Made by a program: the position numbers and the translations under genes. 64,000 nucleotides of DNA from Candidatus Berkelbacteria bacterium CG10_big_fil_rev_8_21_14_0_10_43_13 (GTDB taxonomy: Bacteria > Patescibacteriota > UBA1384 > XYA2-FULL-43-10 > 1-14-0-10-43-13): assembly GCA_002773985.1 (NCBI GenBank), contig PEZW01000009.1, positions 23,546-87,545 on the forward strand. The letters are read 5' to 3'. This document shows, one piece after another, positions 4,572-28,610 of the stretch. How positions within the stretch are numbered: the stretch's first letter is position 1; each line of letters starts with the position of its first letter. The notes beneath the pieces were generated by a model that made no database searches, was not told the DNA's origin, and saw only the letters and a program-made list of their open reading frames with translations.

Positions 4572-4641
4572 GATCTCCCTCCTAATTCGTTTGTATATAT
4601 TGTATTAAATAGTGAAATAAAAAGCAAATTTTTTTAAAATA

Positions 4642-10698: not shown

Positions 10699-10847
10699 TG
10701 TCATTCCCGCGAAGGCGGGAATCCAGGCAAGGCAAGTAGTACTAAATATAAACATAACTCAACTTACCTGGATCCCCGGGCCATGGCGTTGCTGTTCGAC
10801 TGCCGCTCACAGTCTGAGTGCAATCGAAGACCTGCCCGAGGATGACA
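10699..10847. repeat. MITE-like palindromic element (TGTCATTCC...GGATGACA) between the helicase and typA
   Basis: Terminal inverted repeats. The internal segment ctcacagtctgagtgcaatcgaagac is near-identical to an internal segment of the 19937-20145 copy. Confidence 0.55.
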
Positions 10848-12741: not shown

Positions 12742-12967
12742 TTACTGACTCTCAATATAGTTAAATTTAAAACATCGTAGATTGGACACTATCCTCCTTC
12801 GCCAAAGCTTCCCACTTCGTCAAGACTATGCATGACAAGACGGGAGGACACAGTCGCGCGCAATCTACATAATTACTCACTCACCCTTAGAGTGTCATCT
12901 CGACCGAACACACCAAGATATTTCAAACACTAAAAGGATTTTTTCTGCTGTATTAAACGTTTTTCTG

Positions 12968-14155: not shown

Positions 14156-14282
14156 ACCTTTTATTTTACCAGCTAATCACTAGCTTATATTTTACATTTA
14201 CAGACGAACATAATCAACCATAATATTCTAAAAATTAAGCAACACAAACACAAAATATCCATCTCTGAGATGAATATTTTAT

Positions 14283-14330
14283 GGCAGGGGCTAGAGGAGT
14301 CGGTTACGGTCAAAAATCTGTTGATTTTTG
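14283..14330 (-). pseudogene. Degenerate copy of the tRNA-Trp 3' end
   Basis: Minus-strand 3' end CGACTCCTCTAGCCCCTGCCA matches the tRNA-Trp 3' end. No complete cloverleaf could be built. Confidence 0.35.
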
Positions 14331-14426
14331 CCTCGACCCCGTCTCGACGCCAGTCGCGCCTCCGACTTTCGACTCCTTTTACTGTCACATATCAAAATTA
14401 TCTCAACCAATTTGGTTGAGATAATT

Positions 14427-14470
14427 TTGGCAGGGACTAGAGAAGTCGAACCTCTGGCTAGGGTTTTGCC
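14427..14470 (-). pseudogene. tRNA 3' fragment (intact T-arm AGAGG-TTCGACT-TCTCT plus acceptor 3' strand and CCA, no 5' half)
   Basis: Minus strand reads ...AGAGGTTCGACTTCTCTAGTCCCTGCCA. No complementary acceptor 5' strand upstream. Confidence 0.4.
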
Positions 14471-14492
14471 TGCCGGCCGAAGTAACTGTTTT

Positions 14493-14566
14493 TGGCAGGG
14501 GTACGAGGAGTCGGACCCCGGCTTGCGGTTTTGGAGACCGCCGTTCTACCGCTAAACTATACCCCT
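14493..14566 (-). tRNA. tRNA-Trp (anticodon CCA)
   Basis: Manual fold: acceptor AGGGGTA/TACCCCT, D-stem GTTT/GAAC, anticodon stem GCGGT/ACCGC with loop CTCCAAA, T-stem CGGGG/CCTCG, CCA encoded. Confidence 0.7.
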
Positions 14567-14756
14567 ATCAAAAACAGTTTTCTCGCGCAGGCGGGGAGAC
14601 CTCCGTTATACCGTTTTCCGCCAAAGGCGGATCAGTCTCAGACTAAAACTAAGCCCCTAAATTAGTTCATAAAGTTTATCAAGTGGAAAAGTTTTTAAAG
14701 TAATAATGAAATGATCTTTACAAACTTTATGAACTTTTTGCTTTACAAACTTATAA

Positions 14757-15024: not shown

Positions 15025-15615
15025 CTATATCGGCATTTTGTGCTGATTTATCCATTTATTAATAATTCTCAGTAACTCAGTGTCAGAATATCTTAATGAG
15101 ACAGTTCCGAACTCAGATCTTTTTGTGTACGACCCAGCTTTTCCAGTATGGTAAAAAGTTTTGCTGAATCGAGACAGTGGAATTTTGGTTGTTTCTGACC
15201 AGAATAATTTTAATTTATCTTCGTCTTGGTCTGGGTACATGTGGAGTAGTAATCGCAAACGATCTTCTTGTGCTCCGCAAATCTGTCGAAGAAAATGCAG
15301 AAAAAGTTTGATCATGCTAGGATCACTATTACTAAACACAACACTGTTTCCGGCTTTTGTCCCTTCACCCCAATAAAGCATAATCCCTGCAATTTTCAGA
15401 TCGTTCTCTTTTGCAGAAAGTTTCTTTTTAATTGAAAAAGTTGCTTTGCCGAATTTTGTAAGATGCAACATTCTACTTGCTGAACTGTGATTCCGAAATT
15501 GAATCCTTTGTTTCTGAAGAGAATAACGAATCTTTGAAGGACTGATCTTCTGCTGTTCGGCAATCTGTGTCACAGACAGTCCAGATTCATAAAGATCTGC
15601 AATTATATTTTCCAT
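15025..15615 (-). CDS. HTH-domain protein of unknown function inserted in the tRNA cluster
   Basis: N-terminal HTH (LYESGLSVTQIAEQQKISPSKIRYSL), then a domain with GIMLYWGEGTK. A tRNA 5' fragment lies immediately upstream and the stop abuts tRNA-Thr. Confidence 0.55.
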   Translation of the reverse strand: MENIIADLYESGLSVTQIAEQQKISPSKIRYSLQKQRIQFRNHSSASRMLHLTKFGKATFSIKKKLSAKENDLKIAGIMLYWGEGTKAGNSVVFSNSDPSMIKLFLHFLRQICGAQEDRLRLLLHMYPDQDEDKLKLFWSETTKIPLSRFSKTFYHTGKAGSYTKRSEFGTVSLRYSDTELLRIINKWINQHKMPI

Positions 15616-15659
15616 ACCTGTACTATAACAGAGCTAGTGTTTAGTAACAACAGTTGCTC

Positions 15660-15691
15660 TACCACTGAGTTAAAGTGGACAATTTGTGACT
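15660..15691 (-). pseudogene. tRNA 5' fragment (acceptor 5' strand + D-arm CTCAGTGGTAGAGCAACT, tRNA-Thr(GGU)-like) without a 3' half
   Basis: Minus strand reads GTCCACTTTAACTCAGTGGTAGAGCAACTG. No matching acceptor 3' strand downstream. Confidence 0.4.
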
Positions 15692-15696
15692 GTGCC

Positions 15697-15735
15697 AGCC
15701 GTAGCCTCCGCAAACTTGCGGAGCGAAGGCTGGTG
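15697..15735. repeat. Hairpin CCAGCCGTAGC..ctccgcaaacttgcggag..GCGAAGGCTGG abutting the tRNA-Tyr 3' end
   Basis: Shares the CGTAGC...GCGAAGG core with hairpins at 26292-26315, 27248-27271 and 20090-20140. Confidence 0.45.
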
Positions 15736-15816: not shown

Positions 15817-15940
15817 AAATTGTTAATTATGGATGTGCCACGTGAATCGAACGATTGATTTGTTGTCTTTGTCCGTCCCGTAAAACTCACTTCGTTCGCC
15901 ACGGGACACTCCAAAATCTCACTTTCGTTCGATTTTTACG

Positions 15941-19936: not shown

Positions 19937-20145
19937 TGTCATCCTGTCTTCGACTCTGAGGTCTAGCGACCTCGTCGCTCAGACTCGAATGAGAGCCGAT
20001 CTAGCTTGGAGGCGAAGGATCTAAGAGCCCTGTCCTGCCGGCCGGCCGTAGCCATTCGACTTGCGCTCATGGTCTGAGTGTAATTGAAGACTTTAACGAA
20101 GGCTGGAGTGAAATCGAACGGATTCTTCGTAGCCTCAGAATGACG
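19937..20145. repeat. MITE-like palindromic element, about 209 bp (TGTCATCC...GAATGACG), containing the hairpin gaaggctgg..cgtagcctc
   Basis: Terminal inverted repeats. Internal gctcatggtctgagtgtaattgaagac matches the 10699-10847 copy. Confidence 0.55.
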
Positions 20146-25633: not shown

Positions 25634-25720
25634 AATATAGAATTAGAAATTAGGAATTAGGAACAGTAAAGACACTGTCTTTTCTTCCCGATATTTATAA
25701 CATTTTTCTTGACTAAATAC

Positions 25721-25755
25721 AAAAACTGCCCAAGATCTTCGAGGCAGTTTTTGTA
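25721..25755. terminator. Bidirectional rho-independent terminator (ctgcc-caagatcttcgag-ggcag, flanked by A5 and T6)
   Basis: Hairpin plus T-run on the plus strand. The A-run gives a U-run for the minus strand. Confidence 0.6.
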
Positions 25756-25763
25756 TACTTGGA

Positions 25764-25856
25764 TTACTCGTTTTTTGACGAGCCGAGCCAACGCACGAGA
25801 AGGATCAGAACGATGATGATGAGCAGCCACCAGTACCATTGCATTCCCCAAAGCAT
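25764..25856 (-). CDS. Candidate 30-aa hydrophobic peptide (MLWGMQWYWWLLIIIVLILLVRWLGSSKNE)
   Basis: ATG ORF ending immediately before the bidirectional terminator. Preferred over the overlapping TTG-initiated 64-aa track ORF. Confidence 0.3.
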   Translation of the reverse strand: MLWGMQWYWWLLIIIVLILLVRWLGSSKNE

Positions 25857-26175
25857 TTTGCTCCTTTCTAGTCTGATACGACTTTTATATTAGCTTATGT
25901 CAATTTTTTCAATCTCCTAAACACTTTAATTGTAAAACATCTGAGAACTAATTCAAGTCAAAAATAACGACTGAATAATCTTATTTGCTCTGAGAGCCGA
26001 TAAAAAGAAAAATTGTAAAAAAGCGGTAATTGTGGTTTATTAGTTTATATCGGAGATTAGCGCCCCACTTTGCCAAAGCCTGCCTGTCGGCAGACAGGGC
26101 TACGCGGGGCAAGCAGTCTTCCCGATATTCATCGGGATAAAGTCCGCGCATAGCGTTCGCCCTGTACTAAATATT

Positions 26176-26251
26176 CGGGGATTGGCCTAATTGGTAAGGC
26201 GCACGATTCGGGTTCGTGAGATTGGCAGTTCAAGTCTGCCATCCCCGACCA
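26176..26251 (+). tRNA. tRNA-Pro (anticodon CGG)
   Basis: Acceptor CGGGGAT/ATCCCCG, D-arm GCCTAATTGGTAAGGC, anticodon stem CACGA/TCGTG with loop TTCGGGT, T-arm GGCAGTTCAAGTCTGCC, CCA encoded. Confidence 0.8.
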
Positions 26252-26267
26252 CTGATTATTGTAAGTA

Positions 26268-26381
26268 CGGGGCGAATAACGCTGCCTGTCCTCCGTAGCT
26301 TTAGCGAAGGAGGAAGGTCGTGGGTTCAAACTTGCCCTGAAGCGAACTAGTTCTGCTTCAGGGTTCCGCATCCCCGACCGT
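26268..26381 (+). pseudogene. tRNA-like remnant sharing the tRNA-Pro 5' and 3' ends (CGGGG...CATCCCCGACC), with an embedded conserved hairpin
   Basis: Direct repeat of the tRNA-Pro 3' end at 26370-26380. Internal hairpin TCCTCCGTAGCTTTAGCGAAGGAGGA. No valid cloverleaf found. Confidence 0.3.
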
Positions 26382-26431
26382 CTTTTGTCCTCCTCTGGCT
26401 ACAGATGGCACAACCAAAATTTTCAATATAA

Positions 26432-26456
26432 AAGAGCCTACCGGCTCATTTTTTGA
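26432..26456 (+). terminator. Rho-independent terminator (gagcc-tacc-ggctc + T6)
   Basis: Hairpin followed by TTTTTT. Confidence 0.55.
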
Positions 26457-26562
26457 TTATTAAAATATTAATAATAGGTATCCTTTCCGGAGGGACAAGT
26501 CGTCAGACTCATCCCCCCGCGATACTTTTGGGCCGTAGCCCAGACTGTACAGAACCGCACTA

Positions 26563-27000
26563 CTACTCCCACATGAAGACTCGCACTATCTGGTAGGTAC
26601 AAACAGCCCCACTCTGGGATTTAAGCACCCACCTATCGCCTTCAGGAACGAGCACTAGCGTCTGACAGCTGTCTTGATGACGGATCCTCAACTCGTCAGC
26701 TGAGATTGTCAATGTGGCGCCACTCTTAGTGGTCGACCCATTGTGACAGCACCCAACAACTTCGCTTCCGCCATCAAGATTGAATTCGAAGAGCGCTGGC
26801 CAGACTTTGCCGCTCTGCTCCCACGACAGATGAACGACAATTGACAACGTGATTCCAAGCGTGTCTTGCAGACACAACAAGGTTTCCTGTGGCCCTAGCA
26901 TTGTGCAACCCCTTTTATTTTGGTTTTTGCGACTCAGATTTTCAAACCCGAACCGCAAGACAAAAACAAAAACCGCCTCGTCGGCGGTAGTATTTATCAA
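26563..27000 (-). CDS. Hypothetical protein in a GC-rich islet between two tRNA-Pro genes
   Basis: 145-aa ORF. The region is about 52% GC. The real start may be an internal Met. No recognizable domain. Confidence 0.3.
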   Translation of the reverse strand: MINTTADEAVFVFVLRFGFENLSRKNQNKRGCTMLGPQETLLCLQDTLGITLSIVVHLSWEQSGKVWPALFEFNLDGGSEVVGCCHNGSTTKSGATLTISADELRIRHQDSCQTLVLVPEGDRWVLKSQSGAVCTYQIVRVFMWE

Positions 27001-27147
27001 GCTAATTATTATTAACTAGAAAATCACCGCCAAAAGGCAGAAATAATAATCGAGTTAATAACTATATTCTTCTTGGTCATTAACACTAACGATAATATAA
27101 AAAATCAAAAATTTCAATACCAGAGTTTGAGCCACTTTTCTGAAGAT

Positions 27148-27223
27148 TGGTCGGGGAGACCCGACTTGAACGGGCGACCTCATGACCCCCAGCCATGCGC
27201 ACTACCAACTGTGCTACTCCCCG
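27148..27223 (-). tRNA. tRNA-Pro (anticodon GGG)
   Basis: Acceptor CGGGGAG/CTCCCCG, D-arm GCACAGTTGGTAGTGC, anticodon stem CATGG/TCATG with loop CTGGGGG, T-arm GTCGCCCGTTCAAGTCGGGTC, CCA encoded. Confidence 0.75.
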
Positions 27224-27247
27224 AAATTATTTTGCGCGGCACTTTTC

Positions 27248-27271
27248 CACCGTAGCTTCAGCGAAGGTGGG
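27248..27271. repeat. Conserved hairpin CCACCGTAGCTTCAGCGAAGGTGG next to tRNA-Pro(GGG)
   Basis: Near-identical to 26292-26315 (TCCTCCGTAGCTTTAGCGAAGGAGGA). Confidence 0.5.
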
Positions 27272-27386
27272 CCAACTAAGCCACACCCTGAAAACTTGAT
27301 CTGAGCGTATCGCAAAATAATAAAATTGTGAAGGCTGGAAAAAAGCTTAGTTTATTCTTTCTAAAAACTTTGATAACATATTAAAT

Positions 27387-28610
27387 ATGAAAGTTATTCT
27401 TAGTAGTGAATCATTTCCACCAAATGTCTCTGGCGTTGCTACCGCGACTGTAAATCTCGCCGAAAATTTGACCAAAGCTGGCCATGAGGCTTTTGTCTTG
27501 ACTCCCGGAGAAACACACGAAACAACCCTAGACAAGGATTTTCCGAAATACAAAGTATACCGCCTGAAATCAATTACCAATCCCTTCCGTCATGGCTATC
27601 GTGTCACCTTTGTTTCCGATGCAGAGGTTGAAAAACTAGTTCAGGAGATAAGACCTGTCATTATTCATCTTCAGGATCCGGCAACGATCGGCCAGGCATT
27701 GCGAAGGGTCGGCAAAAAACTTGGCATCCCAGTCATCATCACAAATCACTTTTCACTCGAATACGCCATGTCGTATCTAAAAGCACTCAGCCCCTTTATC
27801 CCCCTTTTCCGAGCTACTTTAGTCGAATATCTTGTCCTCTTCTACAATAAATGCGACGCCGTCACGACTCCAACAGAAACTTTTCGTCGACAGATTGTCG
27901 ATTGGGGTGTCAAAACTCCAGTTTACGCTGTCTCAAATGGTATAAAAATGGAAAAATTCCTCGAACACACATCAGAGAAGCAACTAGATGAAACCCGAAA
28001 AAAATTTAATTTACCAGAAAAGCCAACTGCTTTATATCTTGGTCGCGTCGATAAAGACAAGAGCATAGAAGTCTTGGTCCGAGCAATCCCGACAATACTC
28101 AAAAAAGTTGATGCCCACTTCATAATTGCTGGCACTGGTGGAGAACTGGAACGCATGAAATCACTTGTTGCCGATCTAAATATTGATTCTCATGTCACAT
28201 TTATTGGTTTTATCGAACACAACTCGTCTGATTTTGTTAACTTATATAAATGTGCAACTCTTTTTGCCATCCCATCTACAATTGAGACACAAAGCCTTGT
28301 TACACTTGAAGCAATGTCGGCCGGCATACCGATAGTTGCAGCTCGTGCCGGAGCCCTGCCCGAACTGGCCCACAATGGCAAAAATGGCTACCTTTTCACG
28401 CCGGGCAGAAGCGATCAGCTTGCGGCTCGTATCTCTAAAATCTTGCGCAATCACAAATTAGCAACAAGGATGGGCAAAGAGTCCATCAAGATCGCCACTC
28501 CACATCAGATGGACCGCGCTTTTGGCGAGATGCTAAAATTATATGAGAAAGTAATCAAAAATATCGCCACAAAAAAAGATCTTGCCGGAGATAAATTGGT
28601 CGAAAGATGA
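27387..28610 (+). CDS. Family-4 glycosyltransferase (GT4, GT-B fold)
   Basis: N-terminal VSGVATATVNL. C-terminal EAMSAGIPIVAARAGALPE nucleotide-sugar binding motif. Confidence 0.85.
   Translation: MKVILSSESFPPNVSGVATATVNLAENLTKAGHEAFVLTPGETHETTLDKDFPKYKVYRLKSITNPFRHGYRVTFVSDAEVEKLVQEIRPVIIHLQDPATIGQALRRVGKKLGIPVIITNHFSLEYAMSYLKALSPFIPLFRATLVEYLVLFYNKCDAVTTPTETFRRQIVDWGVKTPVYAVSNGIKMEKFLEHTSEKQLDETRKKFNLPEKPTALYLGRVDKDKSIEVLVRAIPTILKKVDAHFIIAGTGGELERMKSLVADLNIDSHVTFIGFIEHNSSDFVNLYKCATLFAIPSTIETQSLVTLEAMSAGIPIVAARAGALPELAHNGKNGYLFTPGRSDQLAARISKILRNHKLATRMGKESIKIATPHQMDRAFGEMLKLYEKVIKNIATKKDLAGDKLVER

What the first reader, a model, noticed from the sequence alone, without database searches (positions are those of the whole stretch)
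26040..27271. Convergent tRNA-Pro genes bracketing a GC-rich islet, with a duplicated tRNA 3' end and conserved CCGTAGCTTYAGCGAAGG hairpins
tRNA-Pro(CGG) (plus, 26176-26251) and tRNA-Pro(GGG) (minus, 27148-27223) face each other across the 26480-26960 GC-rich islet.
- tRNA-Pro(CGG) is flanked by a 17-bp inverted repeat: agcgttcgccctgta / tacggggcgaataacgct.
- It is followed by a tRNA-like remnant (26268-26381) that reuses its 5' CGGGG and 3' CATCCCCGACC ends.
- Both tRNAs are accompanied by near-identical hairpins, TCCTCCGTAGCTTTAGCGAAGGAGGA and CCACCGTAGCTTCAGCGAAGGTGG.
- The same CGTAGC...GCGAAGG core abuts tRNA-Tyr at 15697-15735 and occurs inside the MITE at 20090-20140.
This points to a tRNA-associated recombination hotspot, with the islet as inserted cargo.
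Basis: seen in the sequence. Interest (0 to 1): 0.6.

Follow-up and report, generated by a model that had tools for sequence, protein, structure and literature searches.

The report
tRNA genes nested inside tRNA relics
In this Saccharibacteria-like (CPR) genome, working proline and tryptophan tRNA genes sit inside the broken remains of older tRNA genes with the same anticodon, and small hairpins split those remains in their loops; six literature searches found no bacterial precedent for this layout.

Summary
Close relatives (L021, L023) carry one intact 77-nt tRNA-Pro(CGG) at this position. In the window the same gene spans 26051-26380 and is cut into five pieces by four insertions, one in each loop (D, anticodon, variable, T). 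The anticodon-loop insertion holds the complete, different tRNA-Pro(CGG) that ARAGORN calls (26176-26251), bracketed by the "17-bp inverted repeat". tRNA-Pro(GGG) (27148-27223) sits just downstream of the 5' half of a resident tRNA-Pro(GGG) relic. tRNA-Trp (14493-14566) lies in the anticodon loop of a tRNA-Trp relic. About ten independent metagenomic loci show the same nesting, always with matching anticodon.

The relics evolve faster than the nested genes, and removing the insertions does not restore a tRNA. I therefore read them as pseudogenes left by in-place gene replacement.

The CGTAGC...GCGAAGG hairpins belong to a family that normally starts at the CCA end of tRNAs.

The GC-rich islet is a 112-aa protein gene. 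It is one of several alternative cassettes found in this slot.

How the insertions arise is unknown. Six literature searches found no precedent.

The parts
26051..26063 (+). Resident ('host') tRNA-Pro(CGG) relic, piece 1: acceptor 5' strand, positions 8-9 and the D-stem 5' strand (CGGAGATTAGCGC).
   Evidence: 13/13 identical to positions 1-13 of the intact tRNA-Pro(CGG) of relatives L021 and L023. The BLAST alignment of the upstream flank with L021 (94.5%) runs into it.
26064..26145 (+). Insertion replacing the host D-loop (82 nt). It includes the hairpin TCCCGAT-ATTC-ATCGGGA (26120-26137) followed by TAAAGTCC (26138-26145).
   Evidence: Absent from L021 and L023. The same hairpin+TARAGTCC module lies in the D-loop of a tRNA-Pro(GGG) relic (L037) and of a tRNA-Pro(CGG) relic (L039), with compensatory stem changes. 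It occurs nowhere else in about 490 kb.
26146..26159 (+). Host piece 2: D-stem 3' strand, anticodon-stem 5' strand and the first four bases of the anticodon loop (GCGC AT AGCG TTCG).
   Evidence: Alignment to the L021 tRNA.
26160..26278 (+). Insertion in the host anticodon loop (119 nt): left arm CCCTGTACT, a 7-nt linker, the complete nested tRNA, a 12-nt linker, and right arm AGTACGGGGCGAA.
   Evidence: Inverted repeat I15. The folds show the arms pairing and extending the host anticodon stem.
26176..26251 (+). Nested, intact tRNA-Pro(CGG) ('type B'). Presumed to be the functional gene.
   Evidence: ARAGORN. Rfam tRNA 63 bits. The same tRNA type occurs un-nested in other CPR contigs.
26279..26284 (+). 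Host piece 3: last anticodon-loop base and the anticodon-stem 3' strand (ACGCTG).
   Evidence: 6/6 identical to L021. It pairs with 26151-26155.
26285..26314 (+). Insertion in the host variable loop: CCTG plus hairpin H1 (TCCTCC-GTA-GC-TTTA-GC-GAA-GGAGGA, 26289-26314).
   Evidence: The CCTGTCCNCC...GGNGGA helix is homologous to the variable-loop helix that carries the nested tRNA in L001 and L037.
26315..26330 (+). Host piece 4: variable loop, T-stem 5' strand and six T-loop bases (AGGTCGTGGGTTCAAA).
   Evidence: 16/16 identical to L021.
26331..26363 (+). Insertion in the host T-loop: a near-perfect palindrome, CCCTGAAGC-GAACTAGTTCT-GCTTCAGGG.
   Evidence: Self-complementary match. It folds as its own hairpin. 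Absent in L021 and L023.
26364..26380 (+). Host piece 5: T-stem 3' strand, acceptor 3' strand, then ACCG instead of ACCA.
   Evidence: 14/17 identical to L021. The acceptor stem has one A-C mismatch.
26381..26415 (+). Degenerate trailer hairpin of the host gene (...TCCTCCTCTGGCTACAGATGGCACAAC).
   Evidence: It resembles the trailer of the intact tRNA-Pro(CGG) in L053 (...GGGCTACGGATGGCACGGC). Judged by eye; weak.
26434..26447 (.). Bidirectional terminator-like hairpin: it ends the tRNA-Pro(CGG) unit on + and the islet gene on -.
   Evidence: Conserved after the intact tRNA in L021 and L023.
26563..26901 (-). The 'GC-rich islet': a 112-aa protein-coding gene of unknown function (ATG at 26901; the ORF extends to a TTG at 27000).
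   Evidence: Full-length homologs P0124 (31% identity, pairwise E 3e-15) and P0125. P0124 occupies the same slot in L053, with similar 5' and 3' untranslated sequence. No Pfam or PHROGs hit.
26972..26988 (.). Terminator-like hairpin between tRNA-Pro(GGG) and the islet gene. It lies within a block conserved with L021 (26954-27117, 87%).
27148..27223 (-). Intact tRNA-Pro(GGG) ('type B').
   Evidence: It is 100% identical in L021, L001, L028, L043, L051 and L053.
27224..27290 (-). 5' half of the resident tRNA-Pro(GGG) relic (CAGGGTGTGGCTTAGTTGG...), with hairpin H2 (27246-27270) in its D-loop. No 3' half was found in the window.
   Evidence: 16/16 identical to the intact tRNA-Pro(GGG) of L023 and L026. 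No 3' half was found. L001 keeps both halves around the same nested tRNA.
15697..15735 (-). Hairpin H3: the trailer hairpin of tRNA-Tyr. Its outer stem (CCAGCC/GGCTGG) includes the tRNA's CCA end.
14282..14658 (-). Third nest. tRNA-Trp (14493-14566) lies in the anticodon loop of a tRNA-Trp relic. The relic's 5' half is 14658-14595, with a 30-nt D-loop insertion at 14645-14616. Its 3' half is 14452-14428. A second 3' relic, with a T-loop insertion, lies at 14346-14282.

Best explanation
The locus holds two convergent resident tRNA-Pro genes (CGG on +, GGG on -). Each has been replaced in place.

Shown:
- A second, complete tRNA-Pro gene of the same anticodon, closed off by its own leader-trailer helix, lies in the anticodon loop of the resident CGG gene. 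In relatives the equivalent gene lies in the variable loop or anticodon arm.
- For GGG, only the 5' half of the resident gene survives in the window, immediately upstream of the intact tRNA.
- The resident CGG halves remain as flanking relics. Short GC-rich palindromic hairpins further break them in the D, variable and T loops.

Inferred:
- The nested tRNAs are the functional products.
- They are transcribed from the resident promoter through the relic 5' half.
- They are released by ordinary 5' and 3' tRNA processing.
- Transcription of the CGG unit stops at the conserved hairpin at 26434-26447.
- The relics are pseudogenes drifting under relaxed constraint.

Other elements:
- The CGTAGC...GCGAAGG hairpins belong to a family that normally starts at the CCA end of tRNAs in this clade (CCA-NCC-UUCGC...GCUAC-GGN-UGG). 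H1 and H2 are displaced copies inside relics.
- The GC-rich islet is an ordinary small protein gene in a slot where relatives carry alternative small genes.

Origin (inferred, mechanism not shown):
- A disruptive insertion into a presumably single-copy tRNA gene survives only if it brings the same tRNA. This would explain the matching anticodons.
- The strict loop placement suggests that insertions occur while the nucleic acid is folded, as single-stranded DNA or RNA.
For: 1. Relatives L021 (86% glycosyltransferase identity) and L023 (79%) carry an intact, identical 77-nt tRNA-Pro(CGG) at the syntenic site.
2. The window sequence aligns to that gene in five colinear pieces: 13/13, 12/12, 6/6, 16/16 and 14/17. 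Four insertions separate the pieces.
3. The same holds for GGG: L023 and L026 carry the intact resident type, while the window, L021, L001 and L037 have the other type beside or inside its relic.
4. tRNA-Trp in the window is built the same way.
5. A metagenome scan for the nested tRNA type returned 21 loci. About ten show host fragments around it, in distinct arrangements, and the anticodon always matches.
6. Relics diverge faster than the nested genes: 88.9% against 98.7% (L042 vs L048), and 60-70% against 98.7-100% for the GGG loci.
7. Removing the insertions does not give a callable tRNA-Pro. The D-loop is gone, the anticodon loop is 2 nt short, the acceptor stem has an A-C mismatch, and the 3' end reads CCG.
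8. Identical structure appears in contigs from other samples, L020 and L045. This argues against an assembly artefact.
9. Hairpins: 5 distinct strict hits in 500 kb. Three start at a tRNA CCA end and two lie in relics.
10. Islet: full-length homologs, one of them syntenic in L053.
Against: - Every one of the roughly 20 insertions I could place lies in a loop or junction, and none lies in a stem. Most relic stems still pair. The tRNA-Trp host keeps acceptor 7/7, T stem 5/5 and anticodon stem 4/5.
- The D-loop hairpins and the bracketing helices show changes on both sides that keep pairing.
- These points fit some constraint on the composite RNA, or a structure-directed insertion process, better than plain decay.
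- The retained host pieces are about 97% identical to L021. So either five insertions arose quickly, or the relic is still constrained.
- No transcript data exist. The insertion mechanism and the promoter use are inferred.
- 'Host' and 'nested' types were assigned by my own alignments and by eye in several loci.
Confidence: 0.7

Rival explanations
1. The composite is a functional unit rather than a gene plus junk. The host tRNA body acts as a natural 'tRNA scaffold' that folds into an expanded cloverleaf. It presents the nested pre-tRNA at the tip of its anticodon arm for processing, or yields a second stable tRNA-like RNA. Its hairpin modules are selected expansion segments.
For: - Loop-only placement of all insertions.
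- Stems are largely preserved. A fold constrained to the host cloverleaf costs only 7 kcal/mol more than the minimum free energy (-136.3 against -143.5), and every module forms its own hairpin.
- The composite has a folding z-score of -6.3.
- The D-loop module recurs in CGG and GGG hosts with compensatory changes.
- The bracketing helix is kept in L042 and L044 through changes on both sides.
Against: - The 3' half of the host is missing in several loci (window GGG, L021, L037, L048), yet the nested tRNA is intact there.
- Un-nested copies of the same tRNA exist (L028, L053 and others).
- Relics diverge several times faster than the nested genes.
- Acceptor mismatches occur in three of five hosts.
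- Much of the z-score comes from the nested tRNA and the palindromes themselves.
Confidence: 0.15
2. The host is an intron-containing tRNA of the archaeal multi-intron type (or a group I intron host). The four insertions are spliced out to give a second mature tRNA-Pro(CGG).
For: Insertions in the D, anticodon, variable and T loops resemble the multi-intron tRNA genes of Thermoproteales. Short archaeal tRNA introns are reported to transpose between tRNAs (Fujishima 2010, as summarised in PMC10714607).
Against: - Precise removal does not restore a tRNA-Pro.
- I could draw no bulge-helix-bulge geometry at the junctions (inspection).
- No group I intron or any other Rfam family matches, even at E<=10.
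- The insertions are too small to be ribozymes.
- I know of no bacterial splicing endonuclease (own knowledge).
Confidence: 0.03
3. The fragments are att-site scars of integrative elements that use tRNA genes. Repeated integration and deletion left duplicated tRNA pieces, and the nested tRNA was carried in by such an element.
For: - tRNA genes are classic integration sites (own knowledge).
- Tandem 3' relics exist: two after tRNA-Trp in the window and two in L039.
- The 11-nt 3'-end duplication.
- Variable cargo lies next to the tRNAs.
- L031 has a large serine recombinase and a Replic_Relax gene next to the glycosyltransferase, where tRNA-Pro(GGG) is missing.
Against: - Site-specific integration gives hybrid tRNAs and 3' fragments only. 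It does not give 5' relics plus a complete foreign tRNA inside a 119-nt insert.
- No recombinase domain was found in the neighbouring ORFs of the window that I scanned.
- The nested tRNA type is absent from IMG/VR.
- It does not explain the hairpins in the D, variable and T loops.
Confidence: 0.1
4. Assembly or binning artefact: the nested arrangement is a chimera of two populations carrying different tRNA-Pro alleles.
For: The data are metagenomic. Both tRNA types exist in related populations.
Against: - Identical structure appears in contigs from two other samples (L020, L045).
- The junctions are not at shared sequence.
- Many divergent versions of the architecture exist in other assemblies.
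- The insertions include sequence that belongs to neither tRNA allele.
Confidence: 0.02

Closest known systems
Multi-intron and split tRNA genes of Archaea (Thermoproteales, Nanoarchaeum) and the red alga Cyanidioschyzon
   Same: A tRNA gene interrupted at several non-canonical positions (D, anticodon, variable and T regions) by short structured inserts. Related inserts appear in different tRNA genes.
   Different: This case is bacterial (CPR). I could draw no bulge-helix-bulge junction. Excision would not restore a tRNA. One insert is itself a complete tRNA with the same anticodon. The interrupted gene appears to be a relic.
tRNA gene fragments left by integrase-mediated insertion of genomic islands and prophages
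   Same: Duplicated tRNA 3' segments, arrays of 3' relics, and variable cargo beside tRNA genes.
   Different: Here the 5' halves also persist. The material between the halves is only about 120-150 nt and consists of a whole tRNA with complementary arms. No integrase was found nearby.
Small palindromic repeats that invade genes (Rickettsia palindromic elements; REP/BIME elements with a GTAG head)
   Same: Short GC-rich hairpin modules inserted at positions that spare the fold of the host molecule. A GTAG-plus-hairpin layout on one strand of the H hairpins. Stems differ between copies but keep pairing.
   Different: Low copy number: 3-5 in 64 kb. Strict association with tRNA 3' ends and tRNA relics. 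No RAYT-type transposase was identified. Some copies include the tRNA's CCA end in their stem.
Engineered 'tRNA scaffold' for expressing recombinant RNA (insert replaces the anticodon stem-loop)
   Same: Geometry: a foreign structured RNA sits at the tip of the anticodon arm of a tRNA body.
   Different: This one is natural, the insert is another tRNA, and I have no evidence that the scaffold is needed.
Group I introns in bacterial tRNA anticodon loops
   Same: The insertion site lies in the anticodon loop of a bacterial tRNA gene.
   Different: No ribozyme: no Rfam hit at E<=10. The insert is 119 nt, of which 76 are a tRNA.

Membership tests
Archaeal-type multi-intron tRNA gene | Removing the inserts yields a canonical tRNA. 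| tested here: not met
   ARAGORN finds no tRNA after removing all four inserts. With a guessed D-loop it calls a tRNA with a shifted anticodon (TCG), because the anticodon loop is 2 nt short.
Archaeal-type multi-intron tRNA gene | Bulge-helix-bulge motif at the exon-intron junctions. | tested here: not met
   Inspection of the junctions in the sequence and in the constrained fold. No 3-4-3 bulge-helix-bulge can be drawn. No dedicated BHB search tool was available.
Archaeal-type multi-intron tRNA gene | Splicing endonuclease and ligase encoded in the genome. | not testable with these tools
   Only a 64-kb window is available. None of the scanned ORFs had such domains.
Group I intron in a tRNA | Conserved ribozyme core. 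| tested here: not met
   No Intron_gpI or other match in 25900-27400, even at E<=10.
Integrated element at a tRNA gene (attL/attR) | Direct repeat of the tRNA 3' part bounding the inserted DNA. | tested here: met
   The 11-nt CATCCCCGACC occurs at 26240-26250 and 26369-26379 (D18). Tandem 3' relics follow tRNA-Trp.
Integrated element at a tRNA gene (attL/attR) | Integrase or recombinase gene within the bounded DNA or next to it. | tested here: not met
   Only 117 nt lie between the repeats. The flanking ORFs have no recombinase domains.
Integrated element at a tRNA gene (attL/attR) | The functional tRNA is a hybrid of the resident 5' part and the element's 3' part, and no 5' relic is left. 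| tested here: not met
   The complete resident 5' half is retained upstream of a complete non-hybrid tRNA.
REP/RAYT-type or MITE-like palindromic repeat | Many dispersed copies per genome. | tested here: inconclusive
   Two to three strict copies, and one or two loose ones, in 64 kb. The whole genome is not available.
REP/RAYT-type or MITE-like palindromic repeat | Conserved GTAG head next to an imperfect palindrome. | tested here: met
   On the strand opposite to the tRNA, H1-H3 and the L053 copies read GTAG followed by a hairpin. Here the GTAG lies inside an outer stem, unlike classical REPs.
REP/RAYT-type or MITE-like palindromic repeat | Associated RAYT / IS200-type transposase. | not tested
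   Not seen among the ORFs scanned. The window was not scanned exhaustively.
Intrinsic terminator | GC-rich hairpin followed by a U run. | tested here: not met
   H1, H2 and H3 are not called by the terminator scan and have no T run. The true terminator-like sites are 26434-26447 and 26972-26988.
Canonical bacterial tRNA (the nested genes) | Cloverleaf with correct anticodon loop and encoded CCA. | tested here: met
   ARAGORN and Rfam for 26176-26251, 27148-27223 and 14493-14566.

The most novel reading that the evidence does not exclude
Saccharibacteria harbour a targeted process that writes structured nucleic acids into the loops of tRNA genes. The inserts are whole pre-tRNAs with paired leader and trailer, and small hairpin modules. 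The process would act on folded single-stranded DNA, or on RNA followed by reverse transcription and recombination through the tRNA halves. tRNA genes would then invade and replace their own isoacceptor genes repeatedly, giving 'Russian-doll' tRNA loci. This would be a bacterial counterpart of mobile archaeal tRNA introns, and a new route of tRNA gene turnover and horizontal spread.
Probability: 0.25. Interest if true: 0.85.

Novelty: new variant of a known kind. Interest (0 to 1): 0.68.

Why it matters
- Disrupted tRNA genes are regarded as an archaeal and eukaryotic peculiarity. In bacteria, tRNA genes are known as passive targets of integrases and of group I introns. Here three of the seven tRNA genes in one 64-kb bacterial window, and about ten independent metagenomic loci, show something different. 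A complete tRNA lies inside or beside the relic of a tRNA with the same anticodon, and hairpin modules sit in the relic's loops.
- If general, this is a distinct mode of tRNA gene replacement in the reduced genomes of CPR bacteria.
- It is a practical trap for annotation: relics, pseudo-'MITEs' and spurious ORFs over structured DNA.
- It is a natural example of the tRNA-scaffold geometry.
- It also gives a concrete system for asking whether loop-directed insertion of structured RNA or DNA happens in bacteria.

Tried and rejected
1. RNase P RNA. AUAAAGUCCGCGC-AUAG after a hairpin at 26120-26153 looks like P3-P4, and I looked by eye for a P4 3' strand. None fits, and Rfam gives no RNase P hit even at E<=10. 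The AAAGUCC turned out to be part of a recurrent D-loop module.
2. Islet as a large non-coding RNA. The minus strand folds well: z=-6.7 with terminators and z=-3.0 for the CDS alone. The plus strand gives z=-1.8 and +0.8. There is no Rfam hit. Full-length protein homologs and a syntenic ortholog make it a protein gene. The extra RNA structure remains unexplained.
3. The first word-indexed protein search found only the ORF itself. The exhaustive HMMER search was needed.
4. Hits of the ORF to the SprB and MBG repeat proteins P0122 and P0123 are probably repeat-driven noise.
5. Homology between the window's islet and the cargo genes of L021 and L023: none.
6. Pfam and PHROGs on all cargo proteins: nothing.
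7. [quoted passage not shown]
8. Copies of the inserted modules elsewhere in the window: only H1/H2 and one loose match at 12792-12809.
9. The nested tRNA type was not found in IMG/VR viral contigs.
10. A generic relic finder based on similarity to the neighbouring tRNA recovers few cases, because host and guest differ.
12. Seven literature searches were submitted, and one search was rejected with an error. The six that ran found no description of nested tRNA genes in bacteria.
Full report
**What is there**

ARAGORN and Rfam confirm tRNA-Pro(CGG) at 26176-26251 (+) and tRNA-Pro(GGG) at 27148-27223 (-). No other Rfam family matches 25900-27400, even at E<=10.

- The flanking inverted repeat, the 11-nt duplicated 3' end and the two near-identical hairpins are all real.
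- The 18-nt hairpin motif occurs twice, against 0.06 expected by chance.
- The interval 26480-26960 has GC 0.518 against 0.427 for the window.

**Origin of the window**

The glycosyltransferase at 27387-28610 has its closest genome hit (66% identity) in a Candidatus Saccharibacteria MAG (L001). Metagenomic homologs at 86% (L021), 79% (L023), 71% (L030/L053) and 66-67% (L026, L028) gave syntenic contigs.

**Key comparison**

- In L021 and L023 the site upstream of the islet holds one intact, identical 77-nt tRNA-Pro(CGG): CGGAGATTAGCGCAGCCTGGTAGCGCGCAGCGTTCGGGACGCTGAGGTCGTGGGTTCAAATCCCGCATCTCCGACCA. A terminator follows it directly.
- The window's upstream flank aligns to L021 at 94.5% up to 26063. 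That is 13 bases into this gene, and 113 bases before the tRNA that ARAGORN calls.
- A gap-tolerant alignment recovers the resident gene in five colinear pieces:
  - 26051-26063 (13/13)
  - 26145-26158 (12/12)
  - 26279-26284 (6/6)
  - 26315-26330 (16/16)
  - 26364-26380 (14/17)
- The four gaps fall in the D-loop (82 nt), the anticodon loop (119 nt), the variable loop (30 nt, hairpin H1) and the T-loop (33 nt, a near-perfect palindrome).
- The anticodon-loop insert contains the whole called tRNA, which has a clearly different sequence ('type B').

**The other tRNAs**

- *tRNA-Pro(GGG).* The sequence on the 5' side of the gene (27290-27224, minus strand) starts with CAGGGTGTGGCTTAGT. This is 16/16 identical to the intact tRNA-Pro(GGG) of L023 and L026. 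Hairpin H2 sits in the D-loop of this relic. The relic's 3' half is absent from the window.
- In L001 the same nested tRNA lies in the variable loop of a relic that keeps both halves and has a further hairpin in its T-loop.
- *tRNA-Trp* (14493-14566) lies in the anticodon loop of a tRNA-Trp relic with a 30-nt D-loop insertion. A second 3' relic with a T-loop insertion lies further downstream.
- Three of the seven tRNA genes in the window are therefore associated with relics in this way.

**Generality**

A degenerate pattern matching both nested tRNA-Pro types found 21 metagenomic loci.

- Inspection of the flanks shows host fragments around the tRNA in L039, L042, L044, L048/L050 and L049 (CGG) and in L037/L047, L021/L046 and L001 (GGG).
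- The insertion points differ: anticodon loop, anticodon arm, the junction after the D-arm, and the variable loop.
- The anticodon always matches that of the host.
- Other loci carry the same tRNA with no relic (L028, L032-L036, L038, L040, L041, L043, L051, L052).
- The distribution among relatives is mosaic. L023 has both resident genes intact, L021 has CGG intact and GGG nested, L042 has the reverse, and the window has both replaced.
- The nested tRNA-Pro(GGG) is 100% identical across relatives whose glycosyltransferases are only 66-86% identical. This hints at recent spread.

**Relic or functional composite?**

For relics:
- Host 5' halves diverge faster than the nested genes: 88.9% against 98.7%, and 60-70% against 98.7-100%.
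- Several hosts lack a 3' half.
- Three of five hosts have an acceptor mismatch.
- Removing the inserts gives no tRNA-Pro.

For some constraint, or for a structure-directed process:
- All of the roughly 20 insertions I could place lie in loops or junctions.
- A fold constrained to the host cloverleaf costs only 7 kcal/mol more than the minimum free energy, and each insert forms its own hairpin.
- A D-loop module (hairpin plus TARAGTCC) recurs in CGG and GGG hosts with compensatory stem changes and occurs nowhere else in about 490 kb.
- A variable-loop helix CCTG-TCCNCC...GGNGGA is 'empty' in the window (H1) but carries the nested tRNA in L001 and L037.

I favour relics (0.7) and keep a functional-composite reading at 0.15.

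**The hairpins**

Written in the sense of the adjacent tRNA, the motif reads NCC-UUCGC-(stem-loop)-GCUAC-GGN.

- Three begin exactly at the CCA end of a tRNA, so the outer stem is CCA-NCC/GGN-UGG: tRNA-Tyr in the window, and tRNA-Pro(GGG) and tRNA-Pro(CGG) in L053.
- The other two are H1 and H2, inside relics.
- On the opposite strand the internal loop reads GUA/GAA. This could form G-A, U-A and A-G pairs (inference).
- None has a U run, so they are not intrinsic terminators.
- Their role (3'-end processing signal, protein site or recombination site) is not established.

**The islet**

- The minus-strand ORF had no word-indexed homolog.
- Exhaustive HMMER found two full-length relatives of 110-116 aa. 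The pairwise comparison with P0124 gives 31% identity, E 3e-15.
- P0124 lies in L053 between tRNA-Pro(GGG) and tRNA-Pro(CGG), with similar untranslated sequence on both sides.
- L021 and L023 carry a different small-protein family in that slot (39% identical to each other, no similarity to the window's gene). They also carry a 267-293-aa gene that the window lacks.
- The islet is thus one of several alternative small-gene cassettes, bounded by conserved terminator-like hairpins.

**Comparison with known systems**

- Archaeal multi-intron tRNAs share the loop-wise interruptions but fail on restoration and on junction geometry.
- Group I introns fail on the ribozyme core.
- Integrase scars explain the 3' relic arrays. 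They do not explain the 5' relics, the complete nested tRNA in a 119-nt insert, or the loop hairpins, and no recombinase was found nearby.
- REP or Rickettsia-type palindromic elements are the nearest analogy for the hairpin modules.
- Six literature searches found no description of nested tRNA genes in bacteria. A meeting report notes mobile archaeal tRNA introns and intron-rich rRNA genes in CPR, but says nothing about tRNA introns in CPR.

**Verdict**

The central feature is in-place replacement of tRNA genes by nested tRNAs of the same anticodon, together with loop-specific hairpin insertions. I rate it a new variant of known kinds (disrupted tRNA genes, tRNA relics). The mechanism of origin is open.

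Noticed in passing
window 14282-14658 (minus strand): tRNA-Trp is nested in the anticodon loop of a tRNA-Trp relic. The relic has a D-loop insertion, a bracketing helix (AAACTGTTTT/AAAACAGTT) and two successive 3' relics, a 'Russian-doll' layout.
   Followed up: partly
window 15620-15690 and 15025-15612 (minus strand): Downstream of tRNA-Tyr and hairpin H3 lies a tRNA D-arm-like fragment (AACTCAGTGGTAGAGCAAC). After it comes a 195-aa ORF with no Pfam hit, lying inside the Thr-Tyr-Thr-Trp tRNA cluster.
   Followed up: partly
It includes a loose H-type hairpin (CCGGCC-GTAGCC...AACGAAGG-CTGG) next to a sequence that resembles a tRNA T-loop and 3' end (CGTTCGATTTCACTCCA on the minus strand). The overlapping 137-aa ORF has no Pfam hit.
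   Followed up: partly
window 12770-12870: A long hairpin between convergent genes. It contains TCCTCC...GGCGAAGGAGGA (minus strand), a loose relative of H1.
   Followed up: no
window 10700-10730; L042 1584-1615 and 3705-3735: Another small repeat, TGTCAT-[TCCSSS...SSSGGA hairpin]-ATCCAGG, is shared between the window and a distant relative. Small TCC...GGA hairpins are a recurrent intergenic element in these genomes.
   Followed up: no
window 25716-26063 vs L021 3329-3675: This intergenic block is 94.5% identical to L021, while the flanking protein genes are about 80-82% identical. It contains a short hydrophobic ORF that is also conserved in L053. tRNA-Arg(CCG) is inverted between the two genomes, and the 218-aa gene is missing in L021.
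   Followed up: partly
window 26563-26901 (minus strand): The mRNA strand of the 112-aa gene folds unusually well (z=-3.0; opposite strand +0.8) into a long rod-like structure with a perfect 13-bp helix (26672-26684 / 26767-26779). The unrelated cassette gene in L021 shows no such signal (z=0).
   Followed up: partly
L031 1-5733: In a 63%-identity relative, the space upstream of the glycosyltransferase lacks tRNA-Pro(GGG). Instead it holds a large serine recombinase, a Replic_Relax protein and an HTH protein, a likely integrated element at the same hotspot.
   Followed up: no
L043 around 4573-4632: After tRNA-Pro(GGG), a compound trailer: an outer stem CCATCC/GGATGG (including the CCA) encloses two tandem H-type units.
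   Followed up: no
window 15850-15940 (minus strand): The spacer between tRNA-Thr(GGT) and tRNA-Tyr forms a long hairpin whose outer stem again starts at the CCA end (CCACGT...ACGTGG-CAC). Pairing of the encoded CCA with a downstream UGG may be a general feature of tRNA trailers here.
   Followed up: no
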